Assembly: GCA_964587125.1 (NCBI GenBank)
Contig: CAZPKC010000006.1
Span: forward strand, 7,881 to 71,880
DNA length: 64,000 nucleotides
Direction: 5' to 3'
DNA from: an uncultured Rhodospirillaceae bacterium
GTDB taxonomy: Bacteria > Pseudomonadota > Alphaproteobacteria > UBA9219
Numbering within the stretch: the stretch's first letter is position 1; the number at the start of each line of letters is the position of its first letter. The position numbers and the translations under genes were made by a program. Shown one piece after another: positions 1 through 43,909 of this stretch. Below the pieces are notes generated by a model. That model searched no databases, was not told the DNA's origin, and saw nothing but the letters and a program-made list of their open reading frames with translations.

Positions 1-2348
1 ATTTTCGGAAAAGGCGTATTATAAATCGTGCCGACCCCGCCGCCTTGTTTAACGGCCTCAAAATTTTCCCCGATTTGATTTTCGGCATAATCCGGTTCGG
101 CCAACATACGAATGCTGTGGTTTTCCCACACGCCTGCATAAACGTCAAAATTCGCCCGTTTTCCTGCTTCATAAAGAATCGCCATTGTTTGCAGGCAGGA
201 GTCGATCCGGCGTCCTCCATCGGACAGCGCCCTTCTTGTACTGCCGGAACCATCGCCCAGAATCCACAACTCCACGCTGGTCGGCTCGGTTTCAATCTGA
301 TCTTTTTTCCAGCGTTGTAAATCTGCATCCTCAATTTTTTGTCCGGTCGCGCGTTTCGCGGCCAAATTCATGTGCGCTCGCATATCGAGACGTTGGCGCA
401 CGTCGCCGCCACGCGGCAATTGTTCTTTTTGCTTCGACAGGCCGCGCACAAATTGTTTTTGCTGATCGCGGATATAGACAAAATCGTCGGCGACGCGAGA
501 GATTACAGGCTCAAGTTCATTAATCCGCTTCCTGAATTCTTTCCAATCTCCGCCTGACAGTTTGGTAAGATCAACGTTCCTTTGGCCATCGCTGCCGCCC
601 TGCCCCATATTAAGGTCACAGGGAGTTCCATTTCCGGCTTTTTCGTCCCCTTGCGCCTCTTTGCCGTCCTTGCCGTTGGAGGCATTGTTTTTGCGTTCCT
701 GCTGCTTGGCGTCATGCGCGAGATCGCGTACAGTCTTTGCATCGTCCGTGTTGACTTCTTCTTCGCTCTTTTGGCGGTCGGCTTTCCGCGCTTCTTCCGG
801 CGTTGACGGCAAGCTGCCGTCAATATCCATTTTGCCGACGCCCTCGACATCAACCGAGCCGGGATCGCCGCCTTGCTGTTCCTCCCCGCCCGATCCGCTG
901 CTACTGCCTTGAGAGGGGGACGGATCGTCGGAATTTTGCTGATTTTGTTGTGACCCAGACCCGCTTGTCCCGTCGGATTGTTTTTCGCCCTGCTGTTTGG
1001 AACCTTCGCTTTGCCCGTTTTTCTGGTCTTCGGACTGCTGTTGCTTCTGATTCATCTTGTTTTCGGCATTTTCTTCTGCCGCGTCGATCAGAACTTGAGC
1101 GTAGGGCGCGGCGTATTTGTCCCAGATGCCGTCAATCAGCTTGCAACGTCGGTCGGCATAGGCCTCTACACTACGGGCGAAAACGCTTCTGAACAACCAA
1201 CGGTCGCGTGCAGCGGGTTGCAGATTGGCCACGCCTTCCGCGCCAACGCATTGTTTCATAAGATCATCAAAGTTGCTGTTATCCACGCCCTTAATGTCGG
1301 CGGGATCAACGCCAAGGTTTTTCCATGTCTCCGTATCCGATGTTTCAAACAGCCCATTGGTAGTATAAAAAGACAACGCTAAGGCTTTTCTGAGTTTGCT
1401 TAGGGCTTCCTCGGCGTCAGCAATCTCTTTTTGTTTTGGGGCAAGCGTTAATCCCTGTTTTTGGGGCAAATTGCCTTGCTCAACTGCCCTTAAATACGCG
1501 CCGGAGCCTTGCAGGGTTACGTTCGCTGTGTTTAACGACTCAGCAAAATCGTGCGGAAACTCGATGCTTTGATTGGCGGCATAACGGTTCACGCAATTGT
1601 CTTCCGTCGCGTTGTATATATCATGGCGCAATTCAAATTCTTTGCGGGTGCGCGAAAGCTGTTTGAATTCGTCGCGCGTCAGCTTGCGTGTCTTGCTTTC
1701 CTCTAACAATTTATCTACGCGCTCTTTCAACGGAAGCATCGCATCCGTATATCGGGTTGAAAGTTGCGCGTGGCCAACTTCGTGTATCATCACGCCCGTC
1801 GCATGAGCCAGCCCCTTCATTCCAGGCGCGGGGTCTTTGCCAAAGCCGAGCAGCAGTGTATGAAACAGGTCGATGTTGATATGGTTTTTATCCGGCGAGA
1901 ACCAGAACCAGCTCCCCGGCGTTCCCCAATCCATTGTAGCGTTGCGGTTGGTAATCGAAAGATCGACATAGCGTGCGGACGCGCCAAGTGACCCCGATAA
2001 CTGAGGATTGCGCGTCAGCGTTTTCCACAGAGAACTGGAACGAATTGTGCCAGATTTACTGTTTTGAAAAACAAACCCCAATCCAGCGGCCCAGACCAAC
2101 TGCCCCGCACGCGTCGATAAATCCGCCTCAACACGGGCGCTTGGATCGGTCATAACCTGTTCAAGCTTCGACCGTTCCTGTGCGGCTTCCGATGGCAAAG
2201 CGTCTAGGAATTCTTTAAAGCTCGTTTCGTTCAGGGATTTTTCGTTAAACCGTTTTTTCAGGTCAAGCGCATACGCGGTGAAAGGATCGTTATATATGCG
2301 ATCCAGTTCCGTTTGTACTGAAAGTCTTATTTCACCAAGGTTTGGCAT
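1..2348 (-). CDS. Large protein, partial in the window (its C-terminus runs past position 1). Putative HExxH metallopeptidase domain, then a long Q/S/G/E-rich acidic low-complexity linker, then a vWA domain (DUF2201-like metallopeptidase+VWA architecture)
   Basis: I translated the minus strand myself from ATG-ATG at about 2343-2348 and got an uninterrupted reading frame down to position 1. It is absent from the ORF track, presumably because there is no stop codon in the window. Motifs read directly: GVMIHEVGHAQ (HExxH) and LWILGDGSGSTRRAL (DxSxS MIDAS of vWA). Between them is a roughly 150-aa Q/S/G/E/K-rich linker. Confidence 0.55.
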   Translation of the reverse strand, partial: MPNLGEIRLSVQTELDRIYNDPFTAYALDLKKRFNEKSLNETSFKEFLDALPSEAAQERSKLEQVMTDPSARVEADLSTRAGQLVWAAGLGFVFQNSKSGTIRSSSLWKTLTRNPQLSGSLGASARYVDLSITNRNATMDWGTPGSWFWFSPDKNHINIDLFHTLLLGFGKDPAPGMKGLAHATGVMIHEVGHAQLSTRYTDAMLPLKERVDKLLEESKTRKLTRDEFKQLSRTRKEFELRHDIYNATEDNCVNRYAANQSIEFPHDFAESLNTANVTLQGSGAYLRAVEQGNLPQKQGLTLAPKQKEIADAEEALSKLRKALALSFYTTNGLFETSDTETWKNLGVDPADIKGVDNSNFDDLMKQCVGAEGVANLQPAARDRWLFRSVFARSVEAYADRRCKLIDGIWDKYAAPYAQVLIDAAEENAENKMNQKQQQSEDQKNGQSEGSKQQGEKQSDGTSGSGSQQNQQNSDDPSPSQGSSSGSGGEEQQGGDPGSVDVEGVGKMDIDGSLPSTPEEARKADRQKSEEEVNTDDAKTVRDLAHDAKQQERKNNASNGKDGKEAQGDEKAGNGTPCDLNMGQGGSDGQRNVDLTKLSGGDWKEFRKRINELEPVISRVADDFVYIRDQQKQFVRGLSKQKEQLPRGGDVRQRLDMRAHMNLAAKRATGQKIEDADLQRWKKDQIETEPTSVELWILGDGSGSTRRALSDGGRRIDSCLQTMAILYEAGKRANFDVYAGVWENHSIRMLAEPDYAENQIGENFEAVKQGGGVGTIYNTPFPK

Positions 2349-3177: not shown

Positions 3178-5931
3178 ATGTTTGACCAAATTGATTACGA
3201 CTGCATGACGGCTTTAAGAGAACGGCTCCGCGTTCAAGTTGGGCTAACCCGCCATTATAATGTCAGTTGTTCGACGGGGCGCATTCCCCTTAGTAACGGG
3301 TCAAGTAGCGCTTCTCATTTTCAACCTGAAGAAAATGAAATTCTTCGCTTCTATACCCGCAAAGGAAATAACCACACGCCTCAGTTTCTATTGGCCCCCC
3401 TCACGCCCGAGGCGTTTGAAGAAAGGGTGCAAAACGTTAAGCTGACGACGGCCGGAAAACAACGCGCAGAGATTGTTCGACGCGCGATAAAAAAACATCC
3501 TGAAAATTTTTCGCGGCAAGTCGTCACGGCGTATTCGGCGCTTTATAACGAAATTCTGCCCTCCCGGATTCGGCAAATTACGATCGATTATGAACTTTTT
3601 GCTCCGGAATTTTTGATAGAGGTGCTTCAGGATAAAACCTCCGCAACGCACCAGCTTTTGGGGACAAAAGAGGGAAACGATTTTATTTTAACCCGCTTTT
3701 CGGATGTCCGTACGGCCTGGAAAATCGGGGAAACGCCTTTCGATTTGTTGCATACGACGCCAAAAGGCCCGATTCAGCTCATGCCCTATCGAGGCGACCT
3801 TTCTCCGGATACATTATGCAACAAGTTGAAAGCCGCAGAGATTATCCCGAAATCGGCGCTGAACACTCTCGTGTTTCTTCTTGAAGCTGGGCTTGCGCCC
3901 GTTGGCGGCATGGAACAGGTGCTTTATGCAACCCAAATCAAAGAACGCGTTCTTGAGTGGCTCAAGACTTGCCGCCCTGAGGACCCGCGTATCGACGCCT
4001 TTTCGAAAATCCCGACAGACCGTTCTTATTTCTCCTTATGGGGCGCGTGCTCGGATGATTTATGCGCCCCTGCCTATTACGGGAACGCGTTGCATGATTG
4101 GCGCCTGACCGAAGCAACGGCACGGGATATTATGGACGTGCCGGGATCGATCTCGATGAGCGCTGATTCCATCGTTCTTAACAATCGGTTGCTTTCCTCT
4201 TCCGAAGAATTTCTTGACGAAGAAACGGCTCGCGAAGCGTTCGCCCGTTTGGCTGAAAAAGGAGCTCTTGTTCTTGTGTCGAAACCCTCCTTGAAAAAAC
4301 AAAAGGGAGAGGCTTCTCGGAAATTGCAAGACATCACGGACCCCCTTCTTTCCGGATGCATGGATCGCGTTCTTAGAAAACGGCCGATGTTCGATTTGGT
4401 TCGCCAAGCCAAAACTCTTCGCGATTACGTGAATCCTCTTATGGACTGGACTTTTCAACCTGAAACGTTTCCCTATGCACGCTCCCTTCTGGGGCACATC
4501 GTCAATGAAATCAAAATCTGCTACGGGGATTCCACGGCGCAGGACGTCAAGAAGCAATTGGAGAAGAATTTTTCAGTTGAAACGGGCGTACACGTATCTC
4601 TTCCGCGCACGATGAACCGCCCGGGCAAGCCTTCTTCTCCGATTTTCAACAGCAGCACGCTTTGCTATCAGGCGATCCTTCTTTCCGCGGCGGCACAACT
4701 CACAACGCCGCTTGTTCCAACCGATTTATGGGCACAGGTCATCGACCTATTCCACGGCGTAGATTCGGCCCCTTATAATCCGCAGATTCAGCCTCTGCCC
4801 TCTTTCGTCGATTGGGATAAAATTCGGATCGACAAGAACGATCCGCGTTTTTATGAGAAGCTTGTTCCGCTCGGCCCCTTTTCGCGCTATTTCAGCATTT
4901 TTACGGACGGCATTTACGCGGGCGAACGCGAAACGTCCTGCTATACGCCCGGTGAAATCGAAGGCGCAACGATAACTCCCTTCGTTCGCGAAAGCCTCGC
5001 CGAACGGCTCACGCTTGCAAATATGCTTTTGCCGGAAGGCTATGCTTTTCTGGTATTCGAAGGACACCGTGAAGTGAGGGATCAGAAAACTTTTTTTGGG
5101 CGATTTGCCAACAAACTCTACGAAGACAAGAAAGGAAGTTTTATCGAGGAAAAACAGGGATTCTTGCGTCCCTATACGAAAGAAGACGCTTTTTCCGAGG
5201 CCCAAAAGCATTGGCTACCGCCGGATGCCGAAAATTCGACTCACACGACCGGAGGTTCGCTTGATCTCACCCTTGTTCGCTTCGATAAAAACGACTGGGA
5301 ATGCCTGCAAAAGCTTAATCGGGATCAGCAATATCTCCTTGATCTCGGTTTATCCGAATCCGATGACAGAATCTTCGAGATAGAATTGCAGCGCCATCAA
5401 CTTTTCCGAGAGAAGGCGCGGATGGTGCCGATGGGAATCGTTTTTGACGAAGTTTCTTGGGATGAAAAAGGTTATCGTAAATCAGACCTGCGCTATTTTG
5501 CGGAAAAGAGAGAACGCGAGCCAAAAAATCCCGAGTTTTTGCTAAGCGAGGAGGAAAAGCAGATTGAAGAAAATCGCCGTCTCCTTCACACGATCATGAC
5601 GATCGTCGGTTTTACGCCCGGAGAAAGAGAACTGTACCATTTTGACTTGTGGAACAAACGTTGGGCTACTTCCACAAAAAGCTCCGTTTCCTTTTACGGC
5701 CCCGCCGTTCGTTCACCCGAAAATCTGGAATTCGAGCAATTTCGGAGAGACATTCGCGATCTCAGCATCAAAGCCTCAAATCCGGATTTTGATCCTGCAA
5801 AATTGATCTGGGGCGATTCGATAAGATTTGAGCTTTTACGCCAATACGGATCGATGACAACCGCCAATCTCGACCGCCAGTACCGCGCGGCTTATATTCC
5901 TTCATGTCCGTTGTCCTGTAAAGCGATGTAA
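3178..5931 (+). CDS. 917-aa hypothetical protein. The C-terminal ~350 aa carry a VanX/DdpX-like (peptidase M15D) D-Ala-D-Ala dipeptidase signature. The N-terminal ~550 aa are unrecognised
   Basis: Long ORF in the track. Motifs read: ENSTHTTGGSLDLTLV matches the VanX zinc-site motif S-x-H-x-x-G-x-x-x-D-L-T-L. The downstream ERELYHFDLW matches the E-x-x-H catalytic/His-ligand motif. The upstream LPEGYAFLVFEGHRE resembles the VanX N-terminal GY...D/E-G-YRP region. Confidence 0.6.
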   Translation: MFDQIDYDCMTALRERLRVQVGLTRHYNVSCSTGRIPLSNGSSSASHFQPEENEILRFYTRKGNNHTPQFLLAPLTPEAFEERVQNVKLTTAGKQRAEIVRRAIKKHPENFSRQVVTAYSALYNEILPSRIRQITIDYELFAPEFLIEVLQDKTSATHQLLGTKEGNDFILTRFSDVRTAWKIGETPFDLLHTTPKGPIQLMPYRGDLSPDTLCNKLKAAEIIPKSALNTLVFLLEAGLAPVGGMEQVLYATQIKERVLEWLKTCRPEDPRIDAFSKIPTDRSYFSLWGACSDDLCAPAYYGNALHDWRLTEATARDIMDVPGSISMSADSIVLNNRLLSSSEEFLDEETAREAFARLAEKGALVLVSKPSLKKQKGEASRKLQDITDPLLSGCMDRVLRKRPMFDLVRQAKTLRDYVNPLMDWTFQPETFPYARSLLGHIVNEIKICYGDSTAQDVKKQLEKNFSVETGVHVSLPRTMNRPGKPSSPIFNSSTLCYQAILLSAAAQLTTPLVPTDLWAQVIDLFHGVDSAPYNPQIQPLPSFVDWDKIRIDKNDPRFYEKLVPLGPFSRYFSIFTDGIYAGERETSCYTPGEIEGATITPFVRESLAERLTLANMLLPEGYAFLVFEGHREVRDQKTFFGRFANKLYEDKKGSFIEEKQGFLRPYTKEDAFSEAQKHWLPPDAENSTHTTGGSLDLTLVRFDKNDWECLQKLNRDQQYLLDLGLSESDDRIFEIELQRHQLFREKARMVPMGIVFDEVSWDEKGYRKSDLRYFAEKREREPKNPEFLLSEEEKQIEENRRLLHTIMTIVGFTPGERELYHFDLWNKRWATSTKSSVSFYGPAVRSPENLEFEQFRRDIRDLSIKASNPDFDPAKLIWGDSIRFELLRQYGSMTTANLDRQYRAAYIPSCPLSCKAM

Positions 5932-5984: not shown

Positions 5985-7445
5985 TTGCGAGAGAAGGCAA
6001 AACAATCCCCTTTCCAAGGAAAGCCCCATATGCGTTCTATTTTTCGCAAGAAAATCATTACCCATACGGATTCCGAATATGACCGTAGTTCTTTACGAAA
6101 ATGCCTTTCCGCCCTTGACCTGACGTTGCTCGGCATCGGATGCATTATCGGCACGGGAATTTTCGTTCTTACGGGCATAGCGGCCGCGACGCAGGCCGGT
6201 CCCGCCGTTGTCCTGTCTTTTGTGATCGCCAGCGTCCCCTGCATTATGGCCGCTCTTTCCTATGCTGAACTGGCTTCCTGCGTGGGCGGTTGCGGCAGCG
6301 CCTATGGTTATTCCTATGCCGCATTCGGCGAACTGATCGCATGGATCGTGGGGTGGGACCTTATTCTCGAGTATGGGGTTTCGGTCGCAGCCGTCGCCAA
6401 TGGTTGGTCGGGTTATTTCAATAACATTCTGACTGTCATCGGCTTGTCGCTTCCCAACTGGCTTACGCGCGGGCCTTTCGACAGCGGGATCGTCAATCTT
6501 CCCGCCGCATTTATCATTCTGACGCTGATGGGCGTTCTTGTGCTGGGCATCCGGCAAAGCGCGCAGACGAACGCGGCGATTGTTTTTATCAAGCTCGTGA
6601 CGCTTGCCGTTTTCATCATTGTTGCGTTGTTCAATATTCATCCGGCAAACTGGCATCCTTTCATGCCTTACGGCTGGTTTTCAACTCTGCCCGGCGGAAA
6701 GACCGTCGGCGTCCTTGCTGCGGCTTCTTTGGTGTTTTTCGCCTATGTAGGTTTCGACGCCGTTTCGGTCGCCGTCGAAGAAACGCGCAATCCGCGGCGC
6801 GATGTGCCCATCGGCATTCTGGCCTCTCTGGGATTTTGCACGCTTGTCTATGTTATCGTATCGGGATTGCTGACTTCTCTCGTTCCCTACACCGAGCTTA
6901 ACGTGTCGTCGCCGGTCGCTTTCGCGCTTCAACAGATCGGCATTCATTGGGCGTCGGCATTGGTCGCCACGGGCGTTATCGCGGGACTGACTTCGGTGAT
7001 GCTGGCGCTTTACTACGCCCTAACCCGCATCATCTACGCCATGGGACGGGATGGTTTGCTGCCGCGAGGCGTGGCGCTCGTCAACGAGAGGACGCTCACC
7101 CCCGTGCGCGCGACGGTACTGCCGGGCATCCTTATGGCGATCATCGCAGGATTTTTTCCTCTCGGCATTTTGGCGGAACTGGTGAATATCGGCACGTTGG
7201 CGGCTTTTATTCTTGTGTGCGGGGGCGTCATCGTTCTGCGGTACACGCATCCGAAAATGCACCGCCCCTTCAAAGTGCCGGGAGGCATCGTCTTGCCGAT
7301 GCTCGGCGTCGTGACGTGCGGCGCATTAATCGCTTTCTTGCCGCTCATCACGCATCTTCGATTTGTCATCTGGCTTGTAATCGGCATCGCCGTTTACTTC
7401 GGCTACTCGGTCAGACACAGCAATCTGGCCGACAAGCACAACTAA
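5985..7445 (+). CDS. APC-superfamily amino acid permease (cationic amino acid transporter-like), ~12 TM
   Basis: Hydrophobic multi-helix translation. The N-terminal region LTLLGIGCIIGTGIFVLTGIAAATQAGPAVVLSFVIASV is typical of APC permeases. An alternative start at the internal ATG (about 6030) has an aggaaag Shine-Dalgarno. Confidence 0.8.
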   Translation: MREKAKQSPFQGKPHMRSIFRKKIITHTDSEYDRSSLRKCLSALDLTLLGIGCIIGTGIFVLTGIAAATQAGPAVVLSFVIASVPCIMAALSYAELASCVGGCGSAYGYSYAAFGELIAWIVGWDLILEYGVSVAAVANGWSGYFNNILTVIGLSLPNWLTRGPFDSGIVNLPAAFIILTLMGVLVLGIRQSAQTNAAIVFIKLVTLAVFIIVALFNIHPANWHPFMPYGWFSTLPGGKTVGVLAAASLVFFAYVGFDAVSVAVEETRNPRRDVPIGILASLGFCTLVYVIVSGLLTSLVPYTELNVSSPVAFALQQIGIHWASALVATGVIAGLTSVMLALYYALTRIIYAMGRDGLLPRGVALVNERTLTPVRATVLPGILMAIIAGFFPLGILAELVNIGTLAAFILVCGGVIVLRYTHPKMHRPFKVPGGIVLPMLGVVTCGALIAFLPLITHLRFVIWLVIGIAVYFGYSVRHSNLADKHN

Positions 7446-7466
7446 GGCTTCCGTAAAAAAAGATTT

Positions 7467-8216
7467 TCATTTACCGACTTGCTTGAGCGTCGCGGCAATC
7501 AGCCTTTTAGCCGCAGGCAGAGGATCTCCCTTGGTGACGTAATAAAGAGAGATTTTTTCTTTTTTGTCGAGCACCAACGGACGCACGGACGGAGTTGTCG
7601 AGCTTTCGCTCATAATGCCTAATGCCTCCGGTATTTGGGCTACGATTCTTTCGATCATAGTGGCATTAAGCATTTCGCGCCTATCCGCCTTTATCGGCTT
7701 GCCTCCCAGAAGATTCTTTTCGACATCGGAGCGAAGCCCCCCCGATGGAATTTCGGTCACAACGAGGATGGGTCTATCCTCGCCGCCGACCTCTTTCCAG
7801 TTGGTTGTTTTTCCGCTCAGGATATCGGCGATTTGAGATTCTTTCAGCTCTTTAACCGGATTAGATGGATTGACTGTAAAAGCAACATAGGTCTTTAAGA
7901 TTTCCAAGGGCTTGAACGCGGCAATATCGATAGCGCCGGGCGTTTCCGCATTCACTTTGGCGGCTGTGGCTGCCAAATCGCTGGATATCATGGCTATGTC
8001 GGCCTTGCCTTTCGCCAGATCGAGCAAGCCTTTGCCCGAACCGTTAGCCACGATATCAAGAACGAGCCCAGAATCCCGCTGAATTTCGGCGGCATGGGCA
8101 TCAAAAACCGCGGCGACAAACGTGGTCGATCCATGGATGGAAATCGTTTCGGCAATCCCTGACGTCGGAAACAGAAGCGCGCCAAGCAACACTATAATTT
8201 TAATGCCAGATTTCAT
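7467..8216 (-). CDS. Periplasmic solute-binding protein of the PstS/phosphate-binding-like PBP family (orphan, no transporter genes adjacent)
   Basis: Signal peptide MKSGIKIIVLLGALLFPTSGIA; motifs ISIHGSTTF and ANGSGKGLLDLAKGKADIAMISSDL. Start chosen at M20 of the track ORF (7467..8273). Confidence 0.6.
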   Translation of the reverse strand: MKSGIKIIVLLGALLFPTSGIAETISIHGSTTFVAAVFDAHAAEIQRDSGLVLDIVANGSGKGLLDLAKGKADIAMISSDLAATAAKVNAETPGAIDIAAFKPLEILKTYVAFTVNPSNPVKELKESQIADILSGKTTNWKEVGGEDRPILVVTEIPSGGLRSDVEKNLLGGKPIKADRREMLNATMIERIVAQIPEALGIMSESSTTPSVRPLVLDKKEKISLYYVTKGDPLPAAKRLIAATLKQVGK

Positions 8217-13039: not shown

Positions 13040-13121
13040 TTTCTTAAACCCCCGAACAAAACATGCCTTGCCACGTTACAATTAATCTGTCACCGAGAAT
13101 AGCCTGTATAATACTCCCGTT

Positions 13122-14513
13122 TTGGATGAGTCAAAGCATGATCCGGGTTTTGTTTTCATGAATTCGCCCTTCCCTTCAGAACGGTACGATGCAGATAACG
13201 CTTTCGCGCGCGGCGTCGCTGCCCAAATTAAAGGAGATATAAATGCCGCCGCGCAAGAATGGCGGCGTGCCCTCGTTCTTGCGCCGGAACACGCGCCTGC
13301 GCTTTATAATCTGGCTGTCGCTTCGGCTTTAATGGGGGATGAAAAAGGCGCCGAGGAAAATTATGAAAAGCTTCTGGCTCTGCACCCCGAGCATAGGGAC
13401 GCCCTTTTCAATCTTGCCAATCTGAAAAAACGTCAGAAGCGCGACGCCGACGCCGAAAACCTTATCAGGCGGTTGACAACCGCTCATCCCGATTTTGCTT
13501 CCGGTTGGGTCAATCTGGCTAAAATATATTCGGATCGCGGCGATTTGAAAAACGCGGAGCCGCTGCTTCGCAAGGCCTTAAAGCTCGACCCCTCCCACGT
13601 CGTCGCGCATTGGAATTTATCTCACGTTTTATTGCGTTCCCATTCTTGGGAAGAAGCATGGAAAGAATATGAATGGCGTTTGCAGCTTCCGGGCTGGCTC
13701 AAGCCGCCGGTTTTGGCAAAAGCGTGGACGAAAAACGTTCCGGCGCGACGCATTTTCTTATGGAACGACCAAGGCAGAGGGGACGCGCTTCAATTTCTCC
13801 GTTATCCCCGCCTGCTGGCGGAAAAAGGGCATGAAGTTTGGGTGCTTGTTCAGGAAGACTTGAAAACGATTGCCGCAACGGCGCCCGGCGTGACGGGAGC
13901 CGTCGGCCCCGACGATCCCTTCCCCGAAATCGACGCCGAAGCGCCGCTTCTCAGCCTGCCCTATCGCCTTGGTTTGCCCGATCCACGAAATGCGGGAACC
14001 GCGCCTTATCTTTCAAGCAAAAAGCAGATGTCCCTGCCCCATCGTTCCAAACAGCTTGCTGTAGGATTGGTTTGGGCTGGGAATCAAAAATTCAAAAACG
14101 ACGCCGATAGAAGCGCGCCGCTTTCCTCTCTTACGCCGCTTTTCGAGATCGAGAATATCGATTGGTACAGCCTTCAATGCGGCGACGCGCACGAACAAAT
14201 TCGGGAAAATCGTCTTTCGGACGTTATTCGAGATTTATCGCCGGGCTTAAGAGATTTTTCCGATACGGCCGCCGTTTTGGAAGCGTGCGATATTATCATA
14301 AGCGTCGATACCGCCGTCGCGCATTTGGCCGGAGCCCTTGGCCGCACGTGTTATTTGATGCTTTCAACAAAGCCGGATTGGCGTTTTGCCGACGATGAAA
14401 CGGCGAGCCTTTGGTATCCGACTTTACGCCCGTTCAGGCAAATCCACGCGGGCGATTGGCAAAGCGTTGTGTCCGATATCGCAACCGCGTTGAGAGAAAA
14501 ATTATCACAATAA
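13122..14513 (+). CDS. TPR-repeat protein fused to a glycosyltransferase family 9 (heptosyltransferase-like) domain
   Basis: The N-terminal half has TPR-like repeats (ALYNLAVASALMG, ALFNLANLKK, GWVNLAKIYSDRGD). The C-terminal half has LAVGLVWAGN... and IISVDTAVAHLAGALGRTCYLML, typical of GT9. An alternative start at M13 is possible. Confidence 0.65.
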   Translation: MDESKHDPGFVFMNSPFPSERYDADNAFARGVAAQIKGDINAAAQEWRRALVLAPEHAPALYNLAVASALMGDEKGAEENYEKLLALHPEHRDALFNLANLKKRQKRDADAENLIRRLTTAHPDFASGWVNLAKIYSDRGDLKNAEPLLRKALKLDPSHVVAHWNLSHVLLRSHSWEEAWKEYEWRLQLPGWLKPPVLAKAWTKNVPARRIFLWNDQGRGDALQFLRYPRLLAEKGHEVWVLVQEDLKTIAATAPGVTGAVGPDDPFPEIDAEAPLLSLPYRLGLPDPRNAGTAPYLSSKKQMSLPHRSKQLAVGLVWAGNQKFKNDADRSAPLSSLTPLFEIENIDWYSLQCGDAHEQIRENRLSDVIRDLSPGLRDFSDTAAVLEACDIIISVDTAVAHLAGALGRTCYLMLSTKPDWRFADDETASLWYPTLRPFRQIHAGDWQSVVSDIATALREKLSQ

Positions 14514-14550: not shown

Positions 14551-14564
14551 GAAACGATCACGAC

Positions 14565-17519
14565 TTACTGATTAATTCCGTCAATGCCGCAAGGCGTAAC
14601 TTCATTGCACTGAATAAGCGGCGTGATGCCCGCGTTTCCAGCCCCGCCCGCCTGAGGCGACAGTTCGGCAAGAGAAGTCGGGTTATCGCCGCCCGCATGA
14701 GGCGACAAATCAGCCAAATTCCCGCCCGTGGTCTCTCCGCCGCCGCCGTTCACGATCGAAAGAAGCGTGCCATAGGGTCCGTTTCTGTTGAAGTTATGAG
14801 GAACGTGCTCAAGCACGTCGCCGATGTCCAGAGGATCAACCGTCAACGTGCCCGGGACTATCGTAATAGTGTAGCCGTCGGGATTAGTCGCCACTGTGGC
14901 GACCGCGCCGATGTCAGGATAAGCACCCACGGGCGCCGGAGGCGGCGATCCCGCCGACGTTATATTACTAAAGGTCGGCGGCGTTGTAAGGAAGACGCCG
15001 AGATAAGCGCTCGGATCATAAGCGGCCCCGCCAATCGTATAGCTCGACGTAAAGCCATCGCTCGCCACGACCGACGTGTAGTCTTGCCCGAAAAACTTGG
15101 TCAGATCGTTGAAGGTCACGGTAAGAGCGGGCTCGACGGCGAAGACGTAACGGTCGCCATCGACGGTAATGCTGGTGGGATAAACGGTGTCCCAAATGGC
15201 CGTATTCCCGCTATCGAGGTTGCCGAATACGTCCGTCAGGGGACTGTAGCTATAAACCAGCCAGCGTCCGTCCAAAGCGGTGGGGCTTGCATTATTATTG
15301 ATGAAGTCGCCGTAGCTGTCGGCAAGCGTCACGGACGTTCCTTCTGCCGTGCTATTGACGCCGCCGTTTGCGCCCAGAGTAATGCTTCCGGCTCCGATGC
15401 TCGCGTTCCCCGCAAGAACCTCCGCCAGAAACACGCTGTTGCCCATCGTTTGCATGCCGTTAATTTCGATGCTGCCGGTGTCGTTCAACAGGTTCACGTT
15501 CGTTTGCCAAGTATAGCCGTTGGCCGTGATCGTTCCCGAATCGCGGAAAGTGTTGCCGACGGTAATGCTCGCCGCTTCGGAATTCACATCGCCCAAAACG
15601 GTATTTGTCAGTTGAAGGGTGATGGGGTCGCCTTCGTTATTGAACGCTTCGTCCGCCGGCGATCCGCCGACGCCGATGTTGGTGCCCGACGTAAGAGGTT
15701 CGAAGAAAACGTCTCCGGTTGTTTCTATGGTAGCCGTATTGTCCATGCTGATCGTGTCGGTCACGAAGACGATGTTTCCGCTGTCCCCTACACTGCCGAT
15801 CGTGGCTCCGTCGGTCACGACGATACCGTAATTCCCGTCGCTCGCGAGATTATCTCCGCCGCCGATGCCGACGATCTTGATATTGCCGCTCGTCGAAAGA
15901 ACTTCCGCGTCGGACGTTATGAAGACGCCATAGTTGTTTCCGCTAGGAGAAACATCGCCAATGCTTTCGACAGCGGCAACGAAGTCTTCGCTATCGCTGA
16001 CAGAAACATTTCCACCTTGGCCGAAGATTTTGACGTTGCCGCTATTCGAATAAACTTCCGTGCCACACGTCAGATAAACGCCATAGTTGTTTCCACTGCC
16101 AAAACCGCTGCCTGCGCCTCCGCCGATGCCAACGATCTTGATGTTGCCGCTATCCGATGAAACGACGTCGCCGCTATCCGATGGGACATCCGCGCCGGGC
16201 GGCGTTATCATAAAGACGCCATAGTTGTTTCCGCTGACATTGGCAGCGTCTTGACCGCCGCCTTGGCCGAATATCGAAATCTTGCCGCTACCGCTTGTCT
16301 CGACAACAGAGGCGTTGGCCAACTCGACGCCGTAATCGTAACCGGCCACAAAGGAAGATGCCCCGTTATATCCCGTGCCGGAGATGGAAATGTTCCCGCC
16401 GTTGCCCGCATTAAGCGTGGCGTCGTTAAGATAAACGCCGGCCGTATAAGAACTGTTGCCCTGACCGGCAAGTTTGATGTTTCCGCCGTTCGTGACAATG
16501 GACGAACCCGGATCCATTTCGATCGAGCCGCCGCTCGCCTTAACGCTGCCGTCATTGGTCGTAATGGACGAACCTGCGCCCATATCGATGGAGTTGGCCG
16601 TCAGAACGATCTGGCCGTTTACGGTTTCGACGTTTTCGGCCTGAACGATGCTGTCCAGATTGATCTGGCTGTCGACGACGGCCTCGGCTGCGGACGCCGT
16701 CAATATGACTTGGCCGCCGTTGGAATTGATCGTGCCTGTATTTTCGACCAGCTGATCCTTGATATTTCCGCTGGCCGTCATGCTAAGAAGCCCGTCGCCA
16801 TAAAGATCGACGGAAGTAGCCGTATCGCCGGAAGCAAGAATGACTGTGCCGACATTGGCGTTGATCGTGCCATTATTGACCACTTCAGGAGCGACAAGCG
16901 CGACAAGCCCGCTCGATGTTATCGTGCCGTTATTCGTGACGGACGCAGAGCCGTTGCCGCCCGGCGCAAAGGCGAACGTATTGGTCGTAACATTGGGATT
17001 GAAATTCGAAGAACTGATCGCGCTCGCCGTTGCGATCAAGCCGCCGACGCTGACGGTCGAACCATTTTCAAACGTGATGCCGTTGCCGTTAGCCAGAATA
17101 AGCGTGCCGTTCGGATCGCTGATCTTGCCGAAAATTTGCGAGGCGCTGTTGCCGCCAATTTGGGCAAGAGTCACCATACTTGAAGCAGTAGATTTGTTAA
17201 CAAAATCGACCGTAGCGCTGGAGCCGACGTTGAAGCTCAAAAAATTGATAATCGCGCTGGCTGAGGTTTGTTTGATCGTTTCGGTAACGGTAGGCTTCAA
17301 AATGGTACCGCCGAAGCTGTACCCCAAAGAGGCGTTGCCGCTGGAAGCAATGTTGCTCGGAGTAAGGATCTTGGTTGGAACGGGCGTCGTGAGCGCGGGA
17401 ACCGCTGCCAACGCGGAAGAAACGAACGCCGGATTGATAATGCAAACGGCGGTCAAAAGGCCAGCTATGCTGCTGGCAAATTTCTTATTGTGTTTTTTCG
17501 TCATAGCCGAGTCTCCCAA
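14565..17519 (-). CDS. TpsA-type exoprotein (filamentous-haemagglutinin-family N-terminal TPS domain) with repetitive beta-helical body
   Basis: Signal peptide, then a TPS-domain-like region (ISDPNGTLILANGNGITFENGS, resembling the NPNGI motif). Long G/S/N/T-rich sequence with repeated GNNYGV(Y/F) and SGNIKI(V/F)G(I/Q)GG units. Confidence 0.7.
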   Translation of the reverse strand: MGDSAMTKKHNKKFASSIAGLLTAVCIINPAFVSSALAAVPALTTPVPTKILTPSNIASSGNASLGYSFGGTILKPTVTETIKQTSASAIINFLSFNVGSSATVDFVNKSTASSMVTLAQIGGNSASQIFGKISDPNGTLILANGNGITFENGSTVSVGGLIATASAISSSNFNPNVTTNTFAFAPGGNGSASVTNNGTITSSGLVALVAPEVVNNGTINANVGTVILASGDTATSVDLYGDGLLSMTASGNIKDQLVENTGTINSNGGQVILTASAAEAVVDSQINLDSIVQAENVETVNGQIVLTANSIDMGAGSSITTNDGSVKASGGSIEMDPGSSIVTNGGNIKLAGQGNSSYTAGVYLNDATLNAGNGGNISISGTGYNGASSFVAGYDYGVELANASVVETSGSGKISIFGQGGGQDAANVSGNNYGVFMITPPGADVPSDSGDVVSSDSGNIKIVGIGGGAGSGFGSGNNYGVYLTCGTEVYSNSGNVKIFGQGGNVSVSDSEDFVAAVESIGDVSPSGNNYGVFITSDAEVLSTSGNIKIVGIGGGDNLASDGNYGIVVTDGATIGSVGDSGNIVFVTDTISMDNTATIETTGDVFFEPLTSGTNIGVGGSPADEAFNNEGDPITLQLTNTVLGDVNSEAASITVGNTFRDSGTITANGYTWQTNVNLLNDTGSIEINGMQTMGNSVFLAEVLAGNASIGAGSITLGANGGVNSTAEGTSVTLADSYGDFINNNASPTALDGRWLVYSYSPLTDVFGNLDSGNTAIWDTVYPTSITVDGDRYVFAVEPALTVTFNDLTKFFGQDYTSVVASDGFTSSYTIGGAAYDPSAYLGVFLTTPPTFSNITSAGSPPPAPVGAYPDIGAVATVATNPDGYTITIVPGTLTVDPLDIGDVLEHVPHNFNRNGPYGTLLSIVNGGGGETTGGNLADLSPHAGGDNPTSLAELSPQAGGAGNAGITPLIQCNEVTPCGIDGINQ

Positions 17520-17746
17520 ATTTCAAACGCCGAATATGGATTAACAGATTATTGATGCACAATGAAGTCTTAATGTTTCTTTAGCAACAGAAAAAAATAC
17601 TTTCACCCCTCCTGTGTACGGGAAAAATGTGGGAATTTACCCGTTTTTCCCCGAAAACTCTTGTTTACACACGGTTTTTAATCCTATACACTTCCGCGTC
17701 GCTGTTTGGTCTCGAAAATCGACTTTTATGCCGAAGGGAAAATCCG

Positions 17747-35671: not shown

Positions 35672-37140
35672 CAGCCTATAAATCCTTTTGCCGCGCTAAG
35701 CGCGCTATCGATCAACGGCGCGGGAACGAGCGCAAAACAAATCATCGCCAAGGATGAAAGCGCGAGAACGGTTTTGACGCCCCAATCCGGCAAGGGATCG
35801 ATGCCCATGAGAGGTTCGTCGAAATACATGATCTTGATGAGGCGCAGATAATAAGTCGCCGTCACGACGCTCGTCAAAACGCCGACGATCGCAAGCGGAA
35901 GCAAATCCGCTTTGACCGCCGCAAGGAACATGAAATATTTGCCGAAAAATCCCGCCAGCGGCGGAACACCCGCCAGAGAAAACATCAAAACCGCCATCGC
36001 CAGCGCCACAAGCGGATTGGTTTTCGAAAGGCCTGAAAGATCGACGATCGACTCGACGGCTTTGCCACGGCGGCGCAGGCACAAAATAACCGCGAAAGCG
36101 CCGAGCGTATTCAAAGCATAGATCGCAAAATAAATCAGGATGGCTTGAACGCCCGAAGCGCCTCCGACGACAAGCCCGATAAGGAGCGTACCGACGTTGG
36201 CGATGGAACTGTAGGCCAGAAGGCGTTTCAGGTTCGTTTGCACAAGTCCCGCGAACGCGCCCCAAAGCATCGAGGCTATGGAAATAAATATAATCACCTG
36301 ATGCGCCTGCGCCGTCAGGCCGATCATCGGCTGCAGCAAAAAGCGCGCGAATAAAGCCAGCGCCGCAAGCTTCGGCGCCGAGGCGAAAAACGCCGTCACG
36401 GGCGTGGGCGCGCCTTCGTAGACGTCCGGCGCCCACATATGAAAAGGCACGCCGGATATTTTAAATGCCAGCGCCGCGCAGACGAAAACCATCCCCGCGA
36501 CGACGCCCGGATGCGCCGCTCCGCGCAACGCGAACGCCAGATCGACGAAATCGGTCGTTCCGGCAAAACCGTAAATCAAAGAAATGCCGTAGAGCAAAAT
36601 CCCCGACGACAAAGCGCCGAGGACGAAATATTTCAGCCCCGCTTCGCTCGACCGCGCGTCGTCGCGCAAAAACGCCGCAAGGACATAGAGCGACAGGCTT
36701 TGAAGCTCCACTCCGACGTAAAGCGAAAGCAGATTGCTGGCCGAGATCATCAGCATCATGCCAAGCGCCGCGAAGAGCATCAAAACGGGATACTCGGGAC
36801 GTTCGCGCTTGCCGGATTCAAAATAGCTCCACGACAAAAGGATCGACAGCCCCGAAGCGCCGAGGACAATCGTTTTGGCAAAACGGGCGAAAGCGTCGTC
36901 CACGAATTGCGCGTTGAAAGCGAAAACAGGCAACGCGCCGTTCAGCAAAAGGCCAAGCCGCGACGGGCAAAACATCGTTGCAACGGCAAGGACAAAAACC
37001 GCAATCGCCAGAATGCCGATGTGCCGCGTCGCGCGCGCGCCGCAAACCGCAGCAGCGATAAGGGAGACGAGAGCCGCTACGGCAATCTCGATTTCCGGCA
37101 TCGCGACCATAAAGGATCGGGGATCAATCATGTTGCGCAC
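35671..37140 (-). CDS. nuoN: NADH-quinone oxidoreductase subunit N
   Basis: Polytopic membrane protein; last gene of the nuo operon. Confidence 0.85.
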   Translation of the reverse strand: MRNMIDPRSFMVAMPEIEIAVAALVSLIAAAVCGARATRHIGILAIAVFVLAVATMFCPSRLGLLLNGALPVFAFNAQFVDDAFARFAKTIVLGASGLSILLSWSYFESGKRERPEYPVLMLFAALGMMLMISASNLLSLYVGVELQSLSLYVLAAFLRDDARSSEAGLKYFVLGALSSGILLYGISLIYGFAGTTDFVDLAFALRGAAHPGVVAGMVFVCAALAFKISGVPFHMWAPDVYEGAPTPVTAFFASAPKLAALALFARFLLQPMIGLTAQAHQVIIFISIASMLWGAFAGLVQTNLKRLLAYSSIANVGTLLIGLVVGGASGVQAILIYFAIYALNTLGAFAVILCLRRRGKAVESIVDLSGLSKTNPLVALAMAVLMFSLAGVPPLAGFFGKYFMFLAAVKADLLPLAIVGVLTSVVTATYYLRLIKIMYFDEPLMGIDPLPDWGVKTVLALSSLAMICFALVPAPLIDSALSAAKGFIG

Positions 37141-38635: not shown

Positions 38636-38644
38636 ACGGTCATT

Positions 38645-39514: not shown

Positions 39515-39518
39515 GGAA

Positions 39519-42384: not shown

Positions 42385-42391
42385 ATAATTA

Positions 42392-42877: not shown

Positions 42878-42886
42878 GCTTTTCCC

Positions 42887-43906: not shown

Positions 43907-43909
43907 GAT

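What the first reader, a model, noticed from the sequence alone, without database searches (positions are those of the whole stretch)
14565..19501. Divergently arranged two-partner secretion pair with a compact, repeat-built TpsA
The TpsB transporter is encoded divergently from its putative substrate rather than in the usual tpsB-tpsA operon order.

The TpsA is short (984 aa). After the TPS domain it consists almost entirely of G/S/N/T-rich units carrying the reiterated motif GNNYGV(Y/F)...SGNIKI(V/F)G. This suggests a beta-helix adhesin or toxin carrier with no obvious C-terminal effector domain.

A TPR-GT9 glycosyltransferase gene converges on the tpsA 3' end and could modify it. This is inference, by analogy with glycosylated TPS adhesins.
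Basis: partly seen in the sequence, partly recalled or inferred. Interest (0 to 1): 0.5.

Follow-up and report, generated by a model that had tools for sequence, protein, structure and literature searches.

The report
Switchable two-partner-secreted adhesin with built-in release protease
The divergent tpsA/tpsB pair is real, but it is half of a four-gene cassette: next door lie a LapG-type periplasmic protease and a DvhD-type c-di-GMP receptor, which probably cut the adhesin's conserved C-terminal "cysteine hook" tail and release it from the cell surface when c-di-GMP falls.

Summary
**Observation: confirmed.**
- tpsA (14565..17504, minus strand, 979 aa) has a TPS domain.
- tpsB (17747..19501, plus strand) has POTRA_2 and a ShlB barrel.
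- The two genes are divergent, 242 bp apart.
- Six G/S/N-rich beta-helix repeats exist, but they cover only residues 340-574.

- Just beyond tpsB lies an operon for a BTLCP/LapG-family cysteine protease (22319..23431) and a dCache-PAS-degenerate-HD-GYP protein (20104..22227).
- The latter's best sequence and fold matches are the three solved domains of Desulfovibrio DvhD, a c-di-GMP receptor.
- TpsA ends in tandem L-S-P-x-A-G-G units followed by PLIQC-x5-C-...Q.

**Comparative evidence.**
- In 11 of 14 related loci, in three gene orders, this protease/receptor pair sits beside a divergent tpsA/tpsB.
- Every complete TpsA there carries the same tail, usually with PAAGG, which fits the LapG cleavage consensus.
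- Three tail-less TpsA relatives have neither gene nearby.

**Best reading.** This is a CdrAB/LapDG-like, c-di-GMP-gated adhesin release switch built from DvhDG-type regulators. That combination is not mentioned in the main text of the Dvh or TPS papers I read.

**Caveats.**
- The window's own sites are PHAGG and PQAGG.
- The protease has N-C-K where LapG has the Ca-binding D-C-E.

**Glycosyltransferase link: not supported.**

The parts
14565..17504 (-). tpsA: 979-aa secreted beta-helical adhesin-like protein. Layout: signal peptide, TPS domain, six repeats, non-repeat beta region, degenerate MBG2 domain, C-terminal tail.
   Evidence: Pfam TPS 77.4 bits and TIGR01901 51 bits. The exact protein is on 5 public contigs. 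The AF2 model is beta-rich to about residue 890 and matches HxuA and EtpA.
16563..17279 (-). TPS secretion domain of TpsA (about aa 76-314).
   Evidence: PF05860 match to residues 81-319 of the 984-aa ORF. PDB sequence hits to the EtpA and HxuA secretion domains.
15783..16487 (-). Six G/S/N-rich beta-helix repeat units (aa 340-574). Unit pattern: SGNIKI.G.GG, a variable loop, then GNNYGV.
   Evidence: Unit boundaries and the shuffle test (0 of 20,000 shuffles reach the observed counts) are.
14841..15125 (-). Degenerate MBG_2 (YGX-type) beta-sandwich domain (about aa 794-888).
   Evidence: End-to-end but weak PF18676 match (11 bits, E = 0.62) in the window protein. The same position scores 102 bits in L017 and 21 bits in L018. 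Strands are present in the AF2 model.
14643..14717 (-). Two tandem putative protease-recognition units in the TpsA tail: NLADLSPHAGG (P935-G939) and SLAELSPQAGG (P950-G954).
   Evidence: The tail is conserved in all complete TpsAs of the related loci and in 26 tail-bearing proteins collected. The variable residue x in P-x-A-G-G is Ala in 34 of 56 units. This resembles the LapG consensus [T/A/P]AAG (PMC13090378).
14568..14621 (-). Extreme C-terminus PLIQC966-NEVTP-C972-GIDGINQ: putative 'cysteine hook' that would hold the tail on the periplasmic side of TpsB.
   Evidence: The C-x5-C pair is present at the very C-terminus in all 26 tail-bearing proteins. The region has low pLDDT and looks extended. 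The analogy is to the CdrA cysteine hook (bioRxiv 10.1101/198937; 10.64898/2026.07.13.738186).
17505..17746 (.). Divergent tpsA/tpsB promoter region with non-coding blocks conserved in five loci.
   Evidence: Alignment of the window, L006, L017, L018 and L034 shows three blocks: GT(G/A)TAAAC, ATGAAAG.ATTTTTT...TTGC and C(T/C)GTTAA. A sigma-70-like site lies at 17664-17692. No Rfam match and no unusual folding.
17747..19501 (+). tpsB: 584-aa Omp85-type outer-membrane transporter.
   Evidence: POTRA_2 72.9 bits and ShlB 63.7 bits. The exact protein is public. It is 47-65% identical to the TpsB of the related loci.
20104..22227 (-). DvhD-type inner-membrane c-di-GMP receptor. Layout: TM, periplasmic dCache, TM, PAS, catalytically degenerate HD-GYP.
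   Evidence: - Best PDB sequence hits are DvhD 9rc0 and 9rbz (E = 3e-45 and 1e-42), against 1e-13 for active HD-GYP enzymes.
- The AF2 model (pLDDT 83.9) matches 9rc0, 9rbz (TM 0.85) and the DvhD periplasmic domain 9rc2 (TM 0.71).
- Catalytic motifs are lost: HD is MN, HH is SQ, and GYP is G-P.
22319..23431 (-). LapG/DvhG-type BTLCP cysteine protease (370 aa). Layout: N-terminal membrane anchor, Pro-rich linker of about 140 aa, catalytic domain.
   Evidence: - PF06035, 60.8 bits.
- PDB hits to LapG 4u65 and 4fgo, E about 1e-17.
- The Cys, His and Asp columns are conserved, but the Ca-site D-C-E is N-C-K.
- The linker carries 33-nt and 27-nt imperfect tandem repeats.
19597..19989 (-). 130-aa ORF between the receptor gene and tpsB. 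It is not a conserved member of the cassette.
   Evidence: No Pfam or PADLOC match. No tblastn match in any related locus. The spacer is 15-225 bp in L006, L017, L018 and L019.
13122..14513 (+). TPR plus weak GT9-like protein converging on tpsA. It is a neighbour, not a conserved member of the cassette.
   Evidence: TPR matches are strong. Glyco_transf_9 scores 22.0 bits, at the cut-off. PDB hits cover the TPR part only. The gene is next to tpsA only in the window, L006 and L018, and is replaced or absent in L034, L017 and L030.

Best explanation
**What it is.** The locus is a four-gene surface-adhesion switch.

**Proposed mechanism.**
1. TpsB (an Omp85-type pore) exports TpsA from N- to C-terminus. 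TpsA folds outside as a short beta-helix stalk with one MBG2-like domain.
2. Its last 80 or so residues stay threaded through, or below, the pore. The terminal C966-x5-C972 pair forms a disulfide 'hook' in the periplasm, so the adhesin stays on the cell. This step is inferred by analogy with CdrA and HMW1.
3. The divergent neighbouring operon encodes a membrane-tethered periplasmic LapG/DvhG-type cysteine protease and a DvhD-type receptor.
4. At high c-di-GMP, the degenerate HD-GYP domain of the receptor binds the nucleotide. The receptor then restrains the protease through its periplasmic dCache domain.
5. At low c-di-GMP, the protease is freed. It cuts the tail at one of the tandem L-S-P-x|A-G-G units upstream of the hook, and the adhesin slips out of TpsB.

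**Shown here.**
- The identity of all four proteins.
- The conserved tail.
- The conserved linkage of the four genes.

**Inferred.**
- Disulfide anchoring.
- The cleavage position.
- c-di-GMP binding.
- The direction of regulation.
For: 1. **TPS pair.** Profile and fold evidence for the TPS pair.
2. **Receptor.**
   - It matches D. vulgaris DvhD far better than any active HD-GYP enzyme, by sequence.
   - By fold it matches all three solved DvhD domains, including the periplasmic dCache.
   - Its catalytic metal ligands are replaced.
   - Of the 8 canonical-site c-di-GMP contacts listed for DvhD in PMC13090378, 5 are identical (the L577, K582, M646, R650 and Y652 equivalents) and 1 is conservative (Y523 to F).
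   - The residue aligned with DvhD R650 (window R653) is invariant in 72 homologues. R653 and Y655 (aligned with DvhD Y652) are invariant in the 4-sequence alignment.
3. **Protease.** It belongs to PF06035, matches the LapG structures, and keeps the Cys, His and Asp columns. It has the same unusual membrane anchor plus long disordered linker described for DvhG (PMC13090378).
4. **Linkage.**
   - Among loci whose receptor is at least 51% identical to the window's, 11 of 14 with enough flanking sequence have tpsB and/or tpsA next to the pair.
   - Three gene orders occur: the window type, the L004/L038 type (tpsB-c93-dvhD) and the L030 type.
   - TpsA is only 31-42% identical between these loci.
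5. **Tail.** Every complete TpsA in those loci, and 26 proteins in all, end with 2-3 P-x-A-G-G units plus C-x5-C. The variable residue x is Ala in 34 of 56 units, which gives PAAG, the LapG/DvhG consensus.
6. **Negative controls.** Tail-less TpsA relatives P0006, P0015 and P0021 have no C93 or HD-GYP gene within 10 kb.
7. **Precedents.** LapG releases the TpsA adhesin CdrA by cutting a C-terminal TAAG upstream of a cysteine hook (PMC4694147; 10.1101/198937). DvhD and DvhG do the same job for T1SS adhesins (PMC10990149; PMC13090378).
Against: - **Non-canonical sites.** The window's own two units are P-H-A-G-G and P-Q-A-G-G. Neither has the di-alanine that LapG and DvhG need, and RR substitution blocks cleavage (PMC13090378). 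P0002 and L038 also lack PAAGG.
- **Altered Ca site.** The protease has N-C-K where LapG and DvhG have the Ca-binding D-C-E. The D316A/E318A mutant of DvhG is inactive (PMC13090378). However, N-C-K is strictly conserved in 8 loci, which argues for function.
- **Missing nucleotide contacts.** Two DvhD c-di-GMP contacts are not kept: Y621 is deleted and E668 is Ile. Ligand identity is therefore uncertain.
- **Linkage not obligatory.** Three related loci (L035, L036, L037) have the protease/receptor pair with no TPS genes within 10 kb.
- **No direct CdrA comparison.** I could not obtain the CdrA tail sequence, so the resemblance to CdrA is by described features, not by alignment.
- **No experiments.** Everything comes from uncultivated MAGs.
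Confidence: 0.7

Rival explanations
1. A stand-alone TPS pair secretes a compact beta-helix adhesin that is glycosylated by the adjacent TPR-GT9 enzyme. The protease and HD-GYP genes are unrelated neighbours.
For: The TPR-GT gene converges on tpsA with a 51-bp gap and is kept there in L006 and L018. Glycosylated TpsA adhesins exist, for example HMW1/HMW1C (PMC5422565).
Against: - The GT9 match sits only at the cut-off (22.0 bits).
- The gene is replaced by another gene at the same syntenic spot in L034.
- It is absent near tpsA in L017 and L030.
- In contrast, the protease/receptor pair follows the TPS genes through three different gene orders.
Confidence: 0.08
2. The tail is a permanent anchor and the BTLCP protein is not a release protease. 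Having lost its Ca site, it might act as a processing, maturation or cross-linking (transglutaminase-like) factor, or as an inactive adaptor between the receptor and the TpsA tail.
For: N-C-K replaces D-C-E. The window tail lacks a di-alanine. A Pfam DUF553 transglutaminase-like match is also seen.
Against: - The Cys, His and Asp columns are intact and the domain is 58-81% identical across loci, so it is under purifying selection.
- Most N-C-K loci (L006, L017, L034) pair with tails that do carry PAAGG.
- The D-C-E and N-C-K subclades share the same tail and gene linkage.
Confidence: 0.12
3. The protease/receptor pair controls a different, unlinked adhesin (for example a T1SS LapA/DvhA-like protein), and its position next to the TPS genes is inherited synteny.
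For: L035-L037 and the more distant clade L023-L029 have the pair without any adhesin gene nearby. LapDG and cdrAB are unlinked in P. aeruginosa.
Against: - Adjacency survives rearrangement into three gene orders and receptor divergence down to 51% identity.
- In L004 and L038, tpsB, the protease gene and the receptor gene lie head-to-tail on one strand with short gaps.
- The TpsA tails carry LapG-like motifs.
- The tail-less controls lack the pair.
Confidence: 0.07

Closest known systems
CdrA/CdrB with LapG/LapD (Pseudomonas aeruginosa)
   Same: - A type Vb (TPS) adhesin with an MBG2-type stalk.
- It is held in its TpsB pore by a C-terminal cysteine hook.
- It is released by a periplasmic BTLCP protease that cuts an [T/A/P]AAG-type site upstream of the hook, under c-di-GMP control.
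   Different: - Here the receptor is DvhD-type (dCache-PAS-degenerate HD-GYP), not LapD (LapD_MoxY-HAMP-GGDEF-EAL).
- All four genes are in one locus, whereas cdrAB and lapDG are unlinked.
- tpsA and tpsB are divergent rather than forming a cdrAB operon.
- TpsA is 979 aa against 2154 aa.
- The site is a tandem L-[ASN]-P-x-A-G-G repeat rather than a single TAAG.
- The protease is membrane-anchored and lacks the D-C-E Ca site.
DvhA/DvhG/DvhD (Desulfovibrio vulgaris Hildenborough)
   Same: - The receptor architecture is the same, and DvhD gives the best sequence and fold matches.
- The HD-GYP domain is degenerate.
- The BTLCP protease has a membrane anchor and a long disordered linker.
- The protease and receptor genes are adjacent.
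   Different: - The Dvh substrates are giant T1SS RTX adhesins with an N-terminal retention domain. Here the substrate is a TPS protein with a C-terminal tail.
- The periplasmic domains share only 16% identity.
- DvhG keeps D-C-E, whereas this protease has N-C-K.
- In the HD-GYP domain, the HD motif is SQ in DvhD and MN here.
LapA/LapG/LapD (Pseudomonas fluorescens)
   Same: The logic is the same: inside-out c-di-GMP signalling gates a periplasmic protease that frees an outer-membrane-plugged adhesin.
   Different: The secretion system (T1SS), the retention module (an N-terminal folded plug), the receptor family and the cleavage context (helix, DPxxxLxx, TAAG) all differ.
HMW1/HMW1B/HMW1C (Haemophilus influenzae)
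   Same: It is a TPS adhesin tethered to its TpsB through a C-terminal segment with a disulfide-bonded cysteine pair (from my own knowledge of Buscher et al. 2006). A glycosyltransferase gene lies in the locus (PMC5422565).
   Different: No regulated release protease or c-di-GMP receptor is known for HMW1. HMW1C is a GT41 enzyme in an hmw1ABC operon. The GT-like neighbour here is not conserved with the TPS genes.

Membership tests
Two-partner secretion (type Vb) system | TpsA with an N-terminal TPS secretion domain. | tested here: met
   PF05860 77.4 bits (cut-off 33.5) and TIGR01901 51 bits. PDB hits to the EtpA and HxuA secretion domains. The fold matches HxuA, EtpA and HMW1.
Two-partner secretion (type Vb) system | TpsB: an Omp85-type transporter with ShlB-type POTRA and a ShlB/FhaC barrel. 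| tested here: met
   POTRA_2 72.9 bits and ShlB 63.7 bits.
Two-partner secretion (type Vb) system | TpsB-dependent export of TpsA. | not testable with these tools
   Both proteins have Sec-type N-termini by inspection. The genes are adjacent, and divergent in 8 of 8 related loci.
CdrA-type protease-released TpsA adhesins | A C-terminal [T/A/P]AAG LapG cleavage motif. | tested here: not met
   The window tail has PHAGG and PQAGG, with no di-alanine. At the family level the motif is met: 34 of 56 units are PAAGG, and 10 of the first 13 tails have at least one.
CdrA-type protease-released TpsA adhesins | A cysteine pair ('cysteine hook') C-terminal to the cleavage site. | tested here: met
   C966 and C972 are the only Cys residues in the last 490 residues. 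C-x5-C at the extreme C-terminus is found in all 26 tail-bearing proteins. Disulfide formation was not testable.
CdrA-type protease-released TpsA adhesins | MBG2-type stalk domains. | tested here: inconclusive
   One end-to-end but sub-threshold MBG_2 match in the window protein (11 bits). The match is clear in relatives: L017 102 bits, L038 with several MBG_2/YDG domains, and P0003.
CdrA-type protease-released TpsA adhesins | Sequence homology of the tail to the CdrA C-terminal anchor. | not tested
LapG/DvhG BTLCP proteases (Peptidase_C93) | BTLCP fold with a Cys-His-Asp triad. | tested here: met
   PF06035 60.8 bits. LapG structures 4u65 and 4fgo at E about 1e-17. The C, H and D columns are conserved in the alignment with LapG.
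LapG/DvhG BTLCP proteases (Peptidase_C93) | A Ca2+-binding Asp and Glu flanking the catalytic Cys (D-C-E). | tested here: not met
   The window has N-C-K, as do L006, L007, L016, L017, L032, L034 and L035. D-C-E is found in L004, L020, L030, L036-L039 and in LapG.
LapG/DvhG BTLCP proteases (Peptidase_C93) | Periplasmic location. | not testable with these tools
   An N-terminal hydrophobic anchor (aa about 9-27) is followed by a Pro-rich linker, as reported for DvhG (PMC13090378).
DvhD-type c-di-GMP receptors | Architecture TM - periplasmic dCache - TM - PAS - HD-GYP. | tested here: met
   The AF2 model has pLDDT 83.9. Foldseek gives 9rc0 (PAS/HD-GYP) E = 2e-18, 9rbz TM 0.85, and 9rc2 (DvhD periplasmic domain) E = 2e-9 with TM 0.71, ahead of other dCache structures.
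DvhD-type c-di-GMP receptors | Catalytically degenerate HD-GYP (metal ligands lost). | tested here: met
   HD is M-N, HH is S-Q, and GYP is G-P with a one-residue deletion. The MNIGK motif is shared by the four closest sequences, and N564, G566 and K567 are invariant in the 72-sequence alignment.
DvhD-type c-di-GMP receptors | Conserved c-di-GMP contact residues and actual c-di-GMP binding. | tested here: inconclusive
   At the canonical site, 5 of 8 contacts are identical, 1 is conservative and 2 are lost (Y621 deleted, E668 to I). At the bridging site, P567 is kept, K520 is R and R569 is E (against PMC13090378). Binding itself is not testable here.
DvhD-type c-di-GMP receptors | Encoded next to a BTLCP protease gene. 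| tested here: met
   The protease gene is 91 bp upstream on the same strand. The pair is adjacent in every related locus examined in which the sequence beside the receptor gene is available.

The most novel reading that the evidence does not exclude
This is a previously undescribed, self-contained four-gene cassette (tpsA, tpsB, BTLCP protease, DvhD-type receptor). It completes the 2x2 matrix of receptor type (LapD or DvhD) against secretion route (T1SS or type Vb). In its N-C-K subclade the protease has become Ca2+-independent, with a Lys replacing the metal, and has relaxed P1 specificity. It would then cut H|A, Q|A and K|A bonds in tandem P-x-A-G-G units, so that the number and type of units tune the release kinetics.
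Probability: 0.3. Interest if true: 0.6.

Novelty: new variant of a known kind. Interest (0 to 1): 0.5.

Why it matters
**Significance.**
- Regulated proteolytic release of adhesins is a central step in biofilm dispersal, but it is understood in only a few model systems.
- This locus suggests that the DvhD/DvhG module, so far tied to T1SS adhesins of sulfate reducers, has also been coupled to two-partner secretion in uncultivated proteobacteria.
- Receptor, protease and secretion route would then be interchangeable parts.

**Practical value.**
- The cassette is compact: about 9 kb and four genes, with adhesins as short as 740-979 aa. That makes it a tractable system for reconstitution.
- The natural N-C-K versus D-C-E and PAAGG versus P[HQK]AGG variation offers a ready-made test of what sets LapG-family calcium dependence and site specificity.
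- The conserved tail is also a simple sequence signature for annotating releasable TPS adhesins, which are currently labelled only 'filamentous hemagglutinin family protein'.

Tried and rejected
1. **Glycosyltransferase partner.** Rejected on comparative grounds. The PDB search gave only TPR hits.
2. **Riboswitch or structured leader in the tpsA/tpsB spacer.**
   - An Rfam scan of 13000-24000 at E <= 1 found only four sub-threshold matches of no relevance, and no c-di-GMP riboswitch.
   - Folding of the tpsA leader gave z = -0.54.
3. **The 130-aa ORF as a fifth component.** It has no Pfam or PADLOC match and is not conserved.
4. **Co-variation between the N-C-K protease and non-Ala P1 sites.** Rejected, because the N-C-K loci L006, L017 and L034 have PAAGG tails.
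5. **Search with the C-terminal 234 aa alone.** It gave only three fragments.
6. **Tail-profile search of 1.84 billion representatives.** It was diluted by the MBG_2 repeats of one alignment member. Tails had to be picked out by regex, so the count of 26 is a lower bound.
7. **Sequence search of the receptor's periplasmic domain against the PDB.** It found nothing. Only the fold comparison linked it to the DvhD dCache.
8. **Unavailable papers.** The Cooley et al. 2016 and Chatterjee et al. 2012 papers are not in the library. I therefore could not align the CdrA tail or list the LapG Ca ligands beyond those given in PMC13090378.
9. **Taxonomy.** The nearest named records are MAGs labelled 'Bdellovibrionales bacterium' and 'Alphaproteobacteria bacterium'. 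The lineage is unresolved.

Full report
**1. The observation**

- **tpsA.** It runs 14565..17504 on the minus strand. The mechanical ORF starts at a TTG (984 aa). An ATG five codons in, preceded by GGGAGA, gives 979 aa. That exact protein is called on five public metagenome contigs, so it is not a pseudogene.
- **tpsB.** It most likely starts at the ATG at 17747 (584 aa, also an exact public protein).
- **Spacer.** This leaves a 242-bp divergent spacer.
- **Profile matches.** Pfam gives TPS 77.4 bits for TpsA and POTRA_2 72.9 plus ShlB 63.7 bits for TpsB. NCBIfam gives the NPXG hemagglutinin N-terminal domain at 51 bits.
- **Fold.** An AlphaFold2 model of TpsA (mean pLDDT 68.7) is beta-strand-rich to about residue 890. 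It matches the full-length TpsA beta-helices HxuA and EtpA best.
- **Repeats.** The repeat motif is real. Six units lie at residues 340-574, and no shuffle out of 20,000 reaches the observed motif counts. They make up only about a quarter of the protein.
- **Downstream of the repeats.** There is a non-repeat beta region, a degenerate MBG_2 domain at about 794-888 (11 bits here, 102 bits at the same position in relative L017), and an 80-residue low-confidence tail.

**2. What lies next door**

On the minus strand beyond tpsB are three co-directional ORFs:
- a 370-aa protein (22319..23431);
- a 707-aa protein (20104..22227);
- a 130-aa ORF (19597..19989).

*The 370-aa protein* is a BTLCP/Peptidase_C93 protease (60.8 bits).
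- Its only PDB relatives are LapG from P. fluorescens and L. pneumophila (E about 1e-17).
- It has an N-terminal hydrophobic anchor and a Pro/Glu/Lys-rich linker of about 140 residues, built on imperfect 33- and 27-nt repeats.
- This is the arrangement reported for D. vulgaris DvhG (PMC13090378).

*The 707-aa protein* has HD_5 (HD-GYP) at 110.7 bits, with weak dCache and PAS signals.
- Its best PDB sequence matches are the D. vulgaris DvhD PAS/HD-GYP and HD-GYP structures (E = 3e-45 and 1e-42). Active HD-GYP phosphodiesterases score only about 1e-13.
- An AlphaFold2 model built on 72 homologues (pLDDT 83.9) has the topology TM, about 290 periplasmic residues, TM, PAS, HD-GYP.
- In Foldseek it hits 9rc0, 9rbz (TM 0.85, 44% identity) and the DvhD periplasmic dCache 9rc2 (E = 2e-9, TM 0.71), ahead of other double-Cache domains.
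- The catalytic motifs are gone: HD is MN, HH is SQ, and GYP is G-P.
- Of the eight canonical-site c-di-GMP contacts listed for DvhD (PMC13090378), five are identical, one is conservative, and two are lost (Y621 deleted, E668 to Ile).

**3. The TpsA tail**

The last residues read ...GTLLSIVN...NLADLSPHAGG-DNPTSLAELSPQAGG-AGNAGITPLIQC-NEVTP-C-GIDGINQ.

- The two closest full-length relatives in the protein database, only 33-42% identical elsewhere, end the same way. P0003 has two LAPAAGG units.
- PAAG fits the LapG/DvhG consensus [T/A/P]AAG, in which the bond between the two alanines is cut (PMC13090378).
- The order 'site, then Cys pair, then C-terminus' is the one described for CdrA. In CdrA, LapG cuts at A2105/A2106 of 2154 residues, and an intramolecular disulfide 'cysteine hook' keeps the protein in CdrB (PMC4694147; 10.1101/198937; 10.64898/2026.07.13.738186).

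**4. Comparative test**

I scanned the species-representative genomes and the JGI metagenomes with an alignment of the receptor, and looked up eight further proteins on their contigs (five receptor homologues and three TpsA relatives). This gave two groups.

*Group with receptor at least 51% identical to the window's.*
- Fourteen loci have usable flanks.
- Eleven carry tpsB and/or tpsA beside the protease/receptor pair: the window, L004, L006, L016-L020, L030, L034 and L038.
- Three do not: L035, L036 and L037.
- Three gene orders occur:
  - c93 > dvhD > then < tpsB | tpsA > (window type);
  - < tpsA | tpsB > c93 > dvhD > (L004, L038);
  - c93 > dvhD > < tpsA | tpsB > (L030).
- In all eight loci where both TPS genes are visible, they are divergent.
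- TpsA evolves fast (31-42% identity). TpsB (47-65%), the receptor (51-77%) and the protease domain (57-81%) are much better conserved.
- Every complete TpsA in these loci ends with 2-3 P-x-A-G-G units and C-x5-C.

*Wider search for the tail.*
- A profile search of 1.84 billion cluster representatives, filtered for the motif, raised the total to 26 tail-bearing proteins of 728-2185 aa, plus fragments.
- The variable residue x is Ala in 34 of 56 units.

*Negative controls.* Three tail-less TpsA relatives (P0006, P0015, P0021) have no C93 or HD-GYP gene within 10 kb. P0006 has the ordinary tpsB-tpsA order on a conjugative element.

*More distant receptor clade (39-43% identity, L023-L029).* The protease gene is divergent from the receptor gene and no adhesin gene lies nearby.

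**5. Mechanism**

The best-supported reading is a CdrAB/LapDG-like switch built with DvhDG-type regulators.

1. TpsB exports TpsA.
2. The tail stays in or below the pore, hooked by the C966-C972 disulfide.
3. The membrane-tethered protease cuts a P-x|A-G-G unit when the receptor, no longer loaded with c-di-GMP, lets it go.
4. The adhesin is shed.

Shown here are the protein identities, the tail and the linkage. The disulfide, the scissile bond, nucleotide binding and the sign of regulation are inferred from the CdrA, Lap and Dvh precedents.

**6. Reasons for caution**

- **Sites.** The window's own units are PHAGG and PQAGG, without a di-alanine. So are those of P0002 (PQAGG, PEAGG) and L038 (PASGG, PSAGG).
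- **Calcium site.** The protease has N-C-K where LapG and DvhG have the Ca-binding D-C-E. Mutating D-C-E inactivates DvhG (PMC13090378). N-C-K is, however, invariant in eight loci whose catalytic domains are 65-81% identical. Several of those pair with PAAGG tails. It therefore looks like a functional variant rather than decay, and it does not simply co-vary with the odd sites.
- **Linkage.** The pair can occur without linked TPS genes (L035-L037).
- **CdrA.** I could not align the tail with CdrA itself.

**7. The glycosyltransferase**

- The TPR-GT gene is next to tpsA only in the window and its closest relatives (L006 and L018, 68-69% identical).
- In L034, which shares the flanking DAHP-synthase and PabB-like genes, a nucleoside deoxyribosyltransferase gene occupies that position.
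- L017 and L030 have no TPR-GT gene near tpsA, and none is annotated in the L038 stretch read.
- The GT9 match is at the threshold.
- The modification idea is therefore unsupported, though not excluded.

**8. Comparison with the literature**

- The main text of the 2024 and 2026 Dvh papers ties DvhD and DvhG to T1SS adhesins of Desulfovibrionales. Type Vb secretion appears there only as the P. aeruginosa LapDG case. Their supplementary neighbourhood tables were not checked.
- The TPS review states that maturation protease genes are not part of TPS operons.
- A DvhDG-type module physically linked to a TPS pair, with a dedicated conserved tail, therefore appears to be a new variant of a known kind of system.
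- It is found so far only in MAGs labelled Bdellovibrionales or Alphaproteobacteria.

**9. Verdict**

- Interest is moderate (0.5). It is a tidy, testable extension of the Lap/Dvh/Cdr paradigm with two informative natural variants, not a new principle.

Noticed in passing
window 22319..23431 (-), catalytic motif near aa 283-287; also L006, L007, L016, L017, L032, L034, L035: The LapG-type protease has N-C-K where LapG and DvhG have the Ca2+-binding D-C-E around the nucleophilic Cys. The change is invariant within a subclade of eight loci. Sister loci (L004, L020, L030, L036-L039) keep D-C-E.
   Followed up: partly
window about 22892..23314 (-): The protease carries a membrane anchor plus a Pro/Glu/Lys-rich linker of about 140 aa, built on imperfect 33-nt and 27-nt tandem repeats. 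This feature was thought possibly specific to D. vulgaris Hildenborough DvhG. The relatives L004, L007, L036, L037 and L038 are about 213-216 aa with short N-termini that look like ordinary signal peptides; L017 and L030 are also short (stop-to-stop ORFs of 224-255 aa).
   Followed up: partly
window 17505..17746; L006 14083..14322; L034 14376..14628; L017 5995..6222; L018 about 3477..3704: The divergent tpsA/tpsB spacer keeps three non-coding blocks across five loci, although TpsA itself is only about 40% identical: GT(G/A)TAAAC, ATGAAAG.ATTTTTT..TTGC and C(T/C)GTTAA. These are probably shared promoter or operator elements. No Rfam match and no unusual RNA folding were found.
   Followed up: partly
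window 19597..19989 (-): This 130-aa ORF between the receptor gene and tpsB has no family match and is absent from related loci. L016 and L034 have different small ORFs in the same gap.
   Followed up: partly
L023-L029 (receptor 39-43% identical to the window's): In this second clade of DvhD-like receptors the protease gene is divergent from the receptor gene. It is followed by ORFs that, from their sequence motifs alone, look like a metallophosphoesterase and an HldE-like kinase (no profile search was run on them). No adhesin gene lies within 10 kb.
   Followed up: no
L039 7911..14268: A more distant protease/HD-GYP pair (31% identity) sits between a Slam-like TPR/SlipAM/DUF2860 protein and a TonB-dependent receptor. 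This hints at yet another class of surface substrate.
   Followed up: no
P0226 and P0045 C-termini (protein ids): More distant TpsA proteins end with related but different tails. P0226 has LADLEPASGG plus C-x9-C. P0045 has EPAAG and EPASG plus two Cys. The site-plus-cysteine-pair design may therefore be wider than the family defined here.
   Followed up: no
window 17081..17092 (-), TpsA aa 139-142: The second conserved TPS-domain motif, usually NPNG, reads N-G-N-G here and in L006. P0002 has N-Q-N-G.
   Followed up: no
window 3178..5931 (+): This 917-aa ORF has no Pfam or PADLOC match.
   Followed up: no
window 36000..44000: AT skew is strongly positive here (0.14-0.33) over a run of long minus-strand ORFs, and negative at 1..2000 and 6000..8000. 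The cause was not examined.
   Followed up: no
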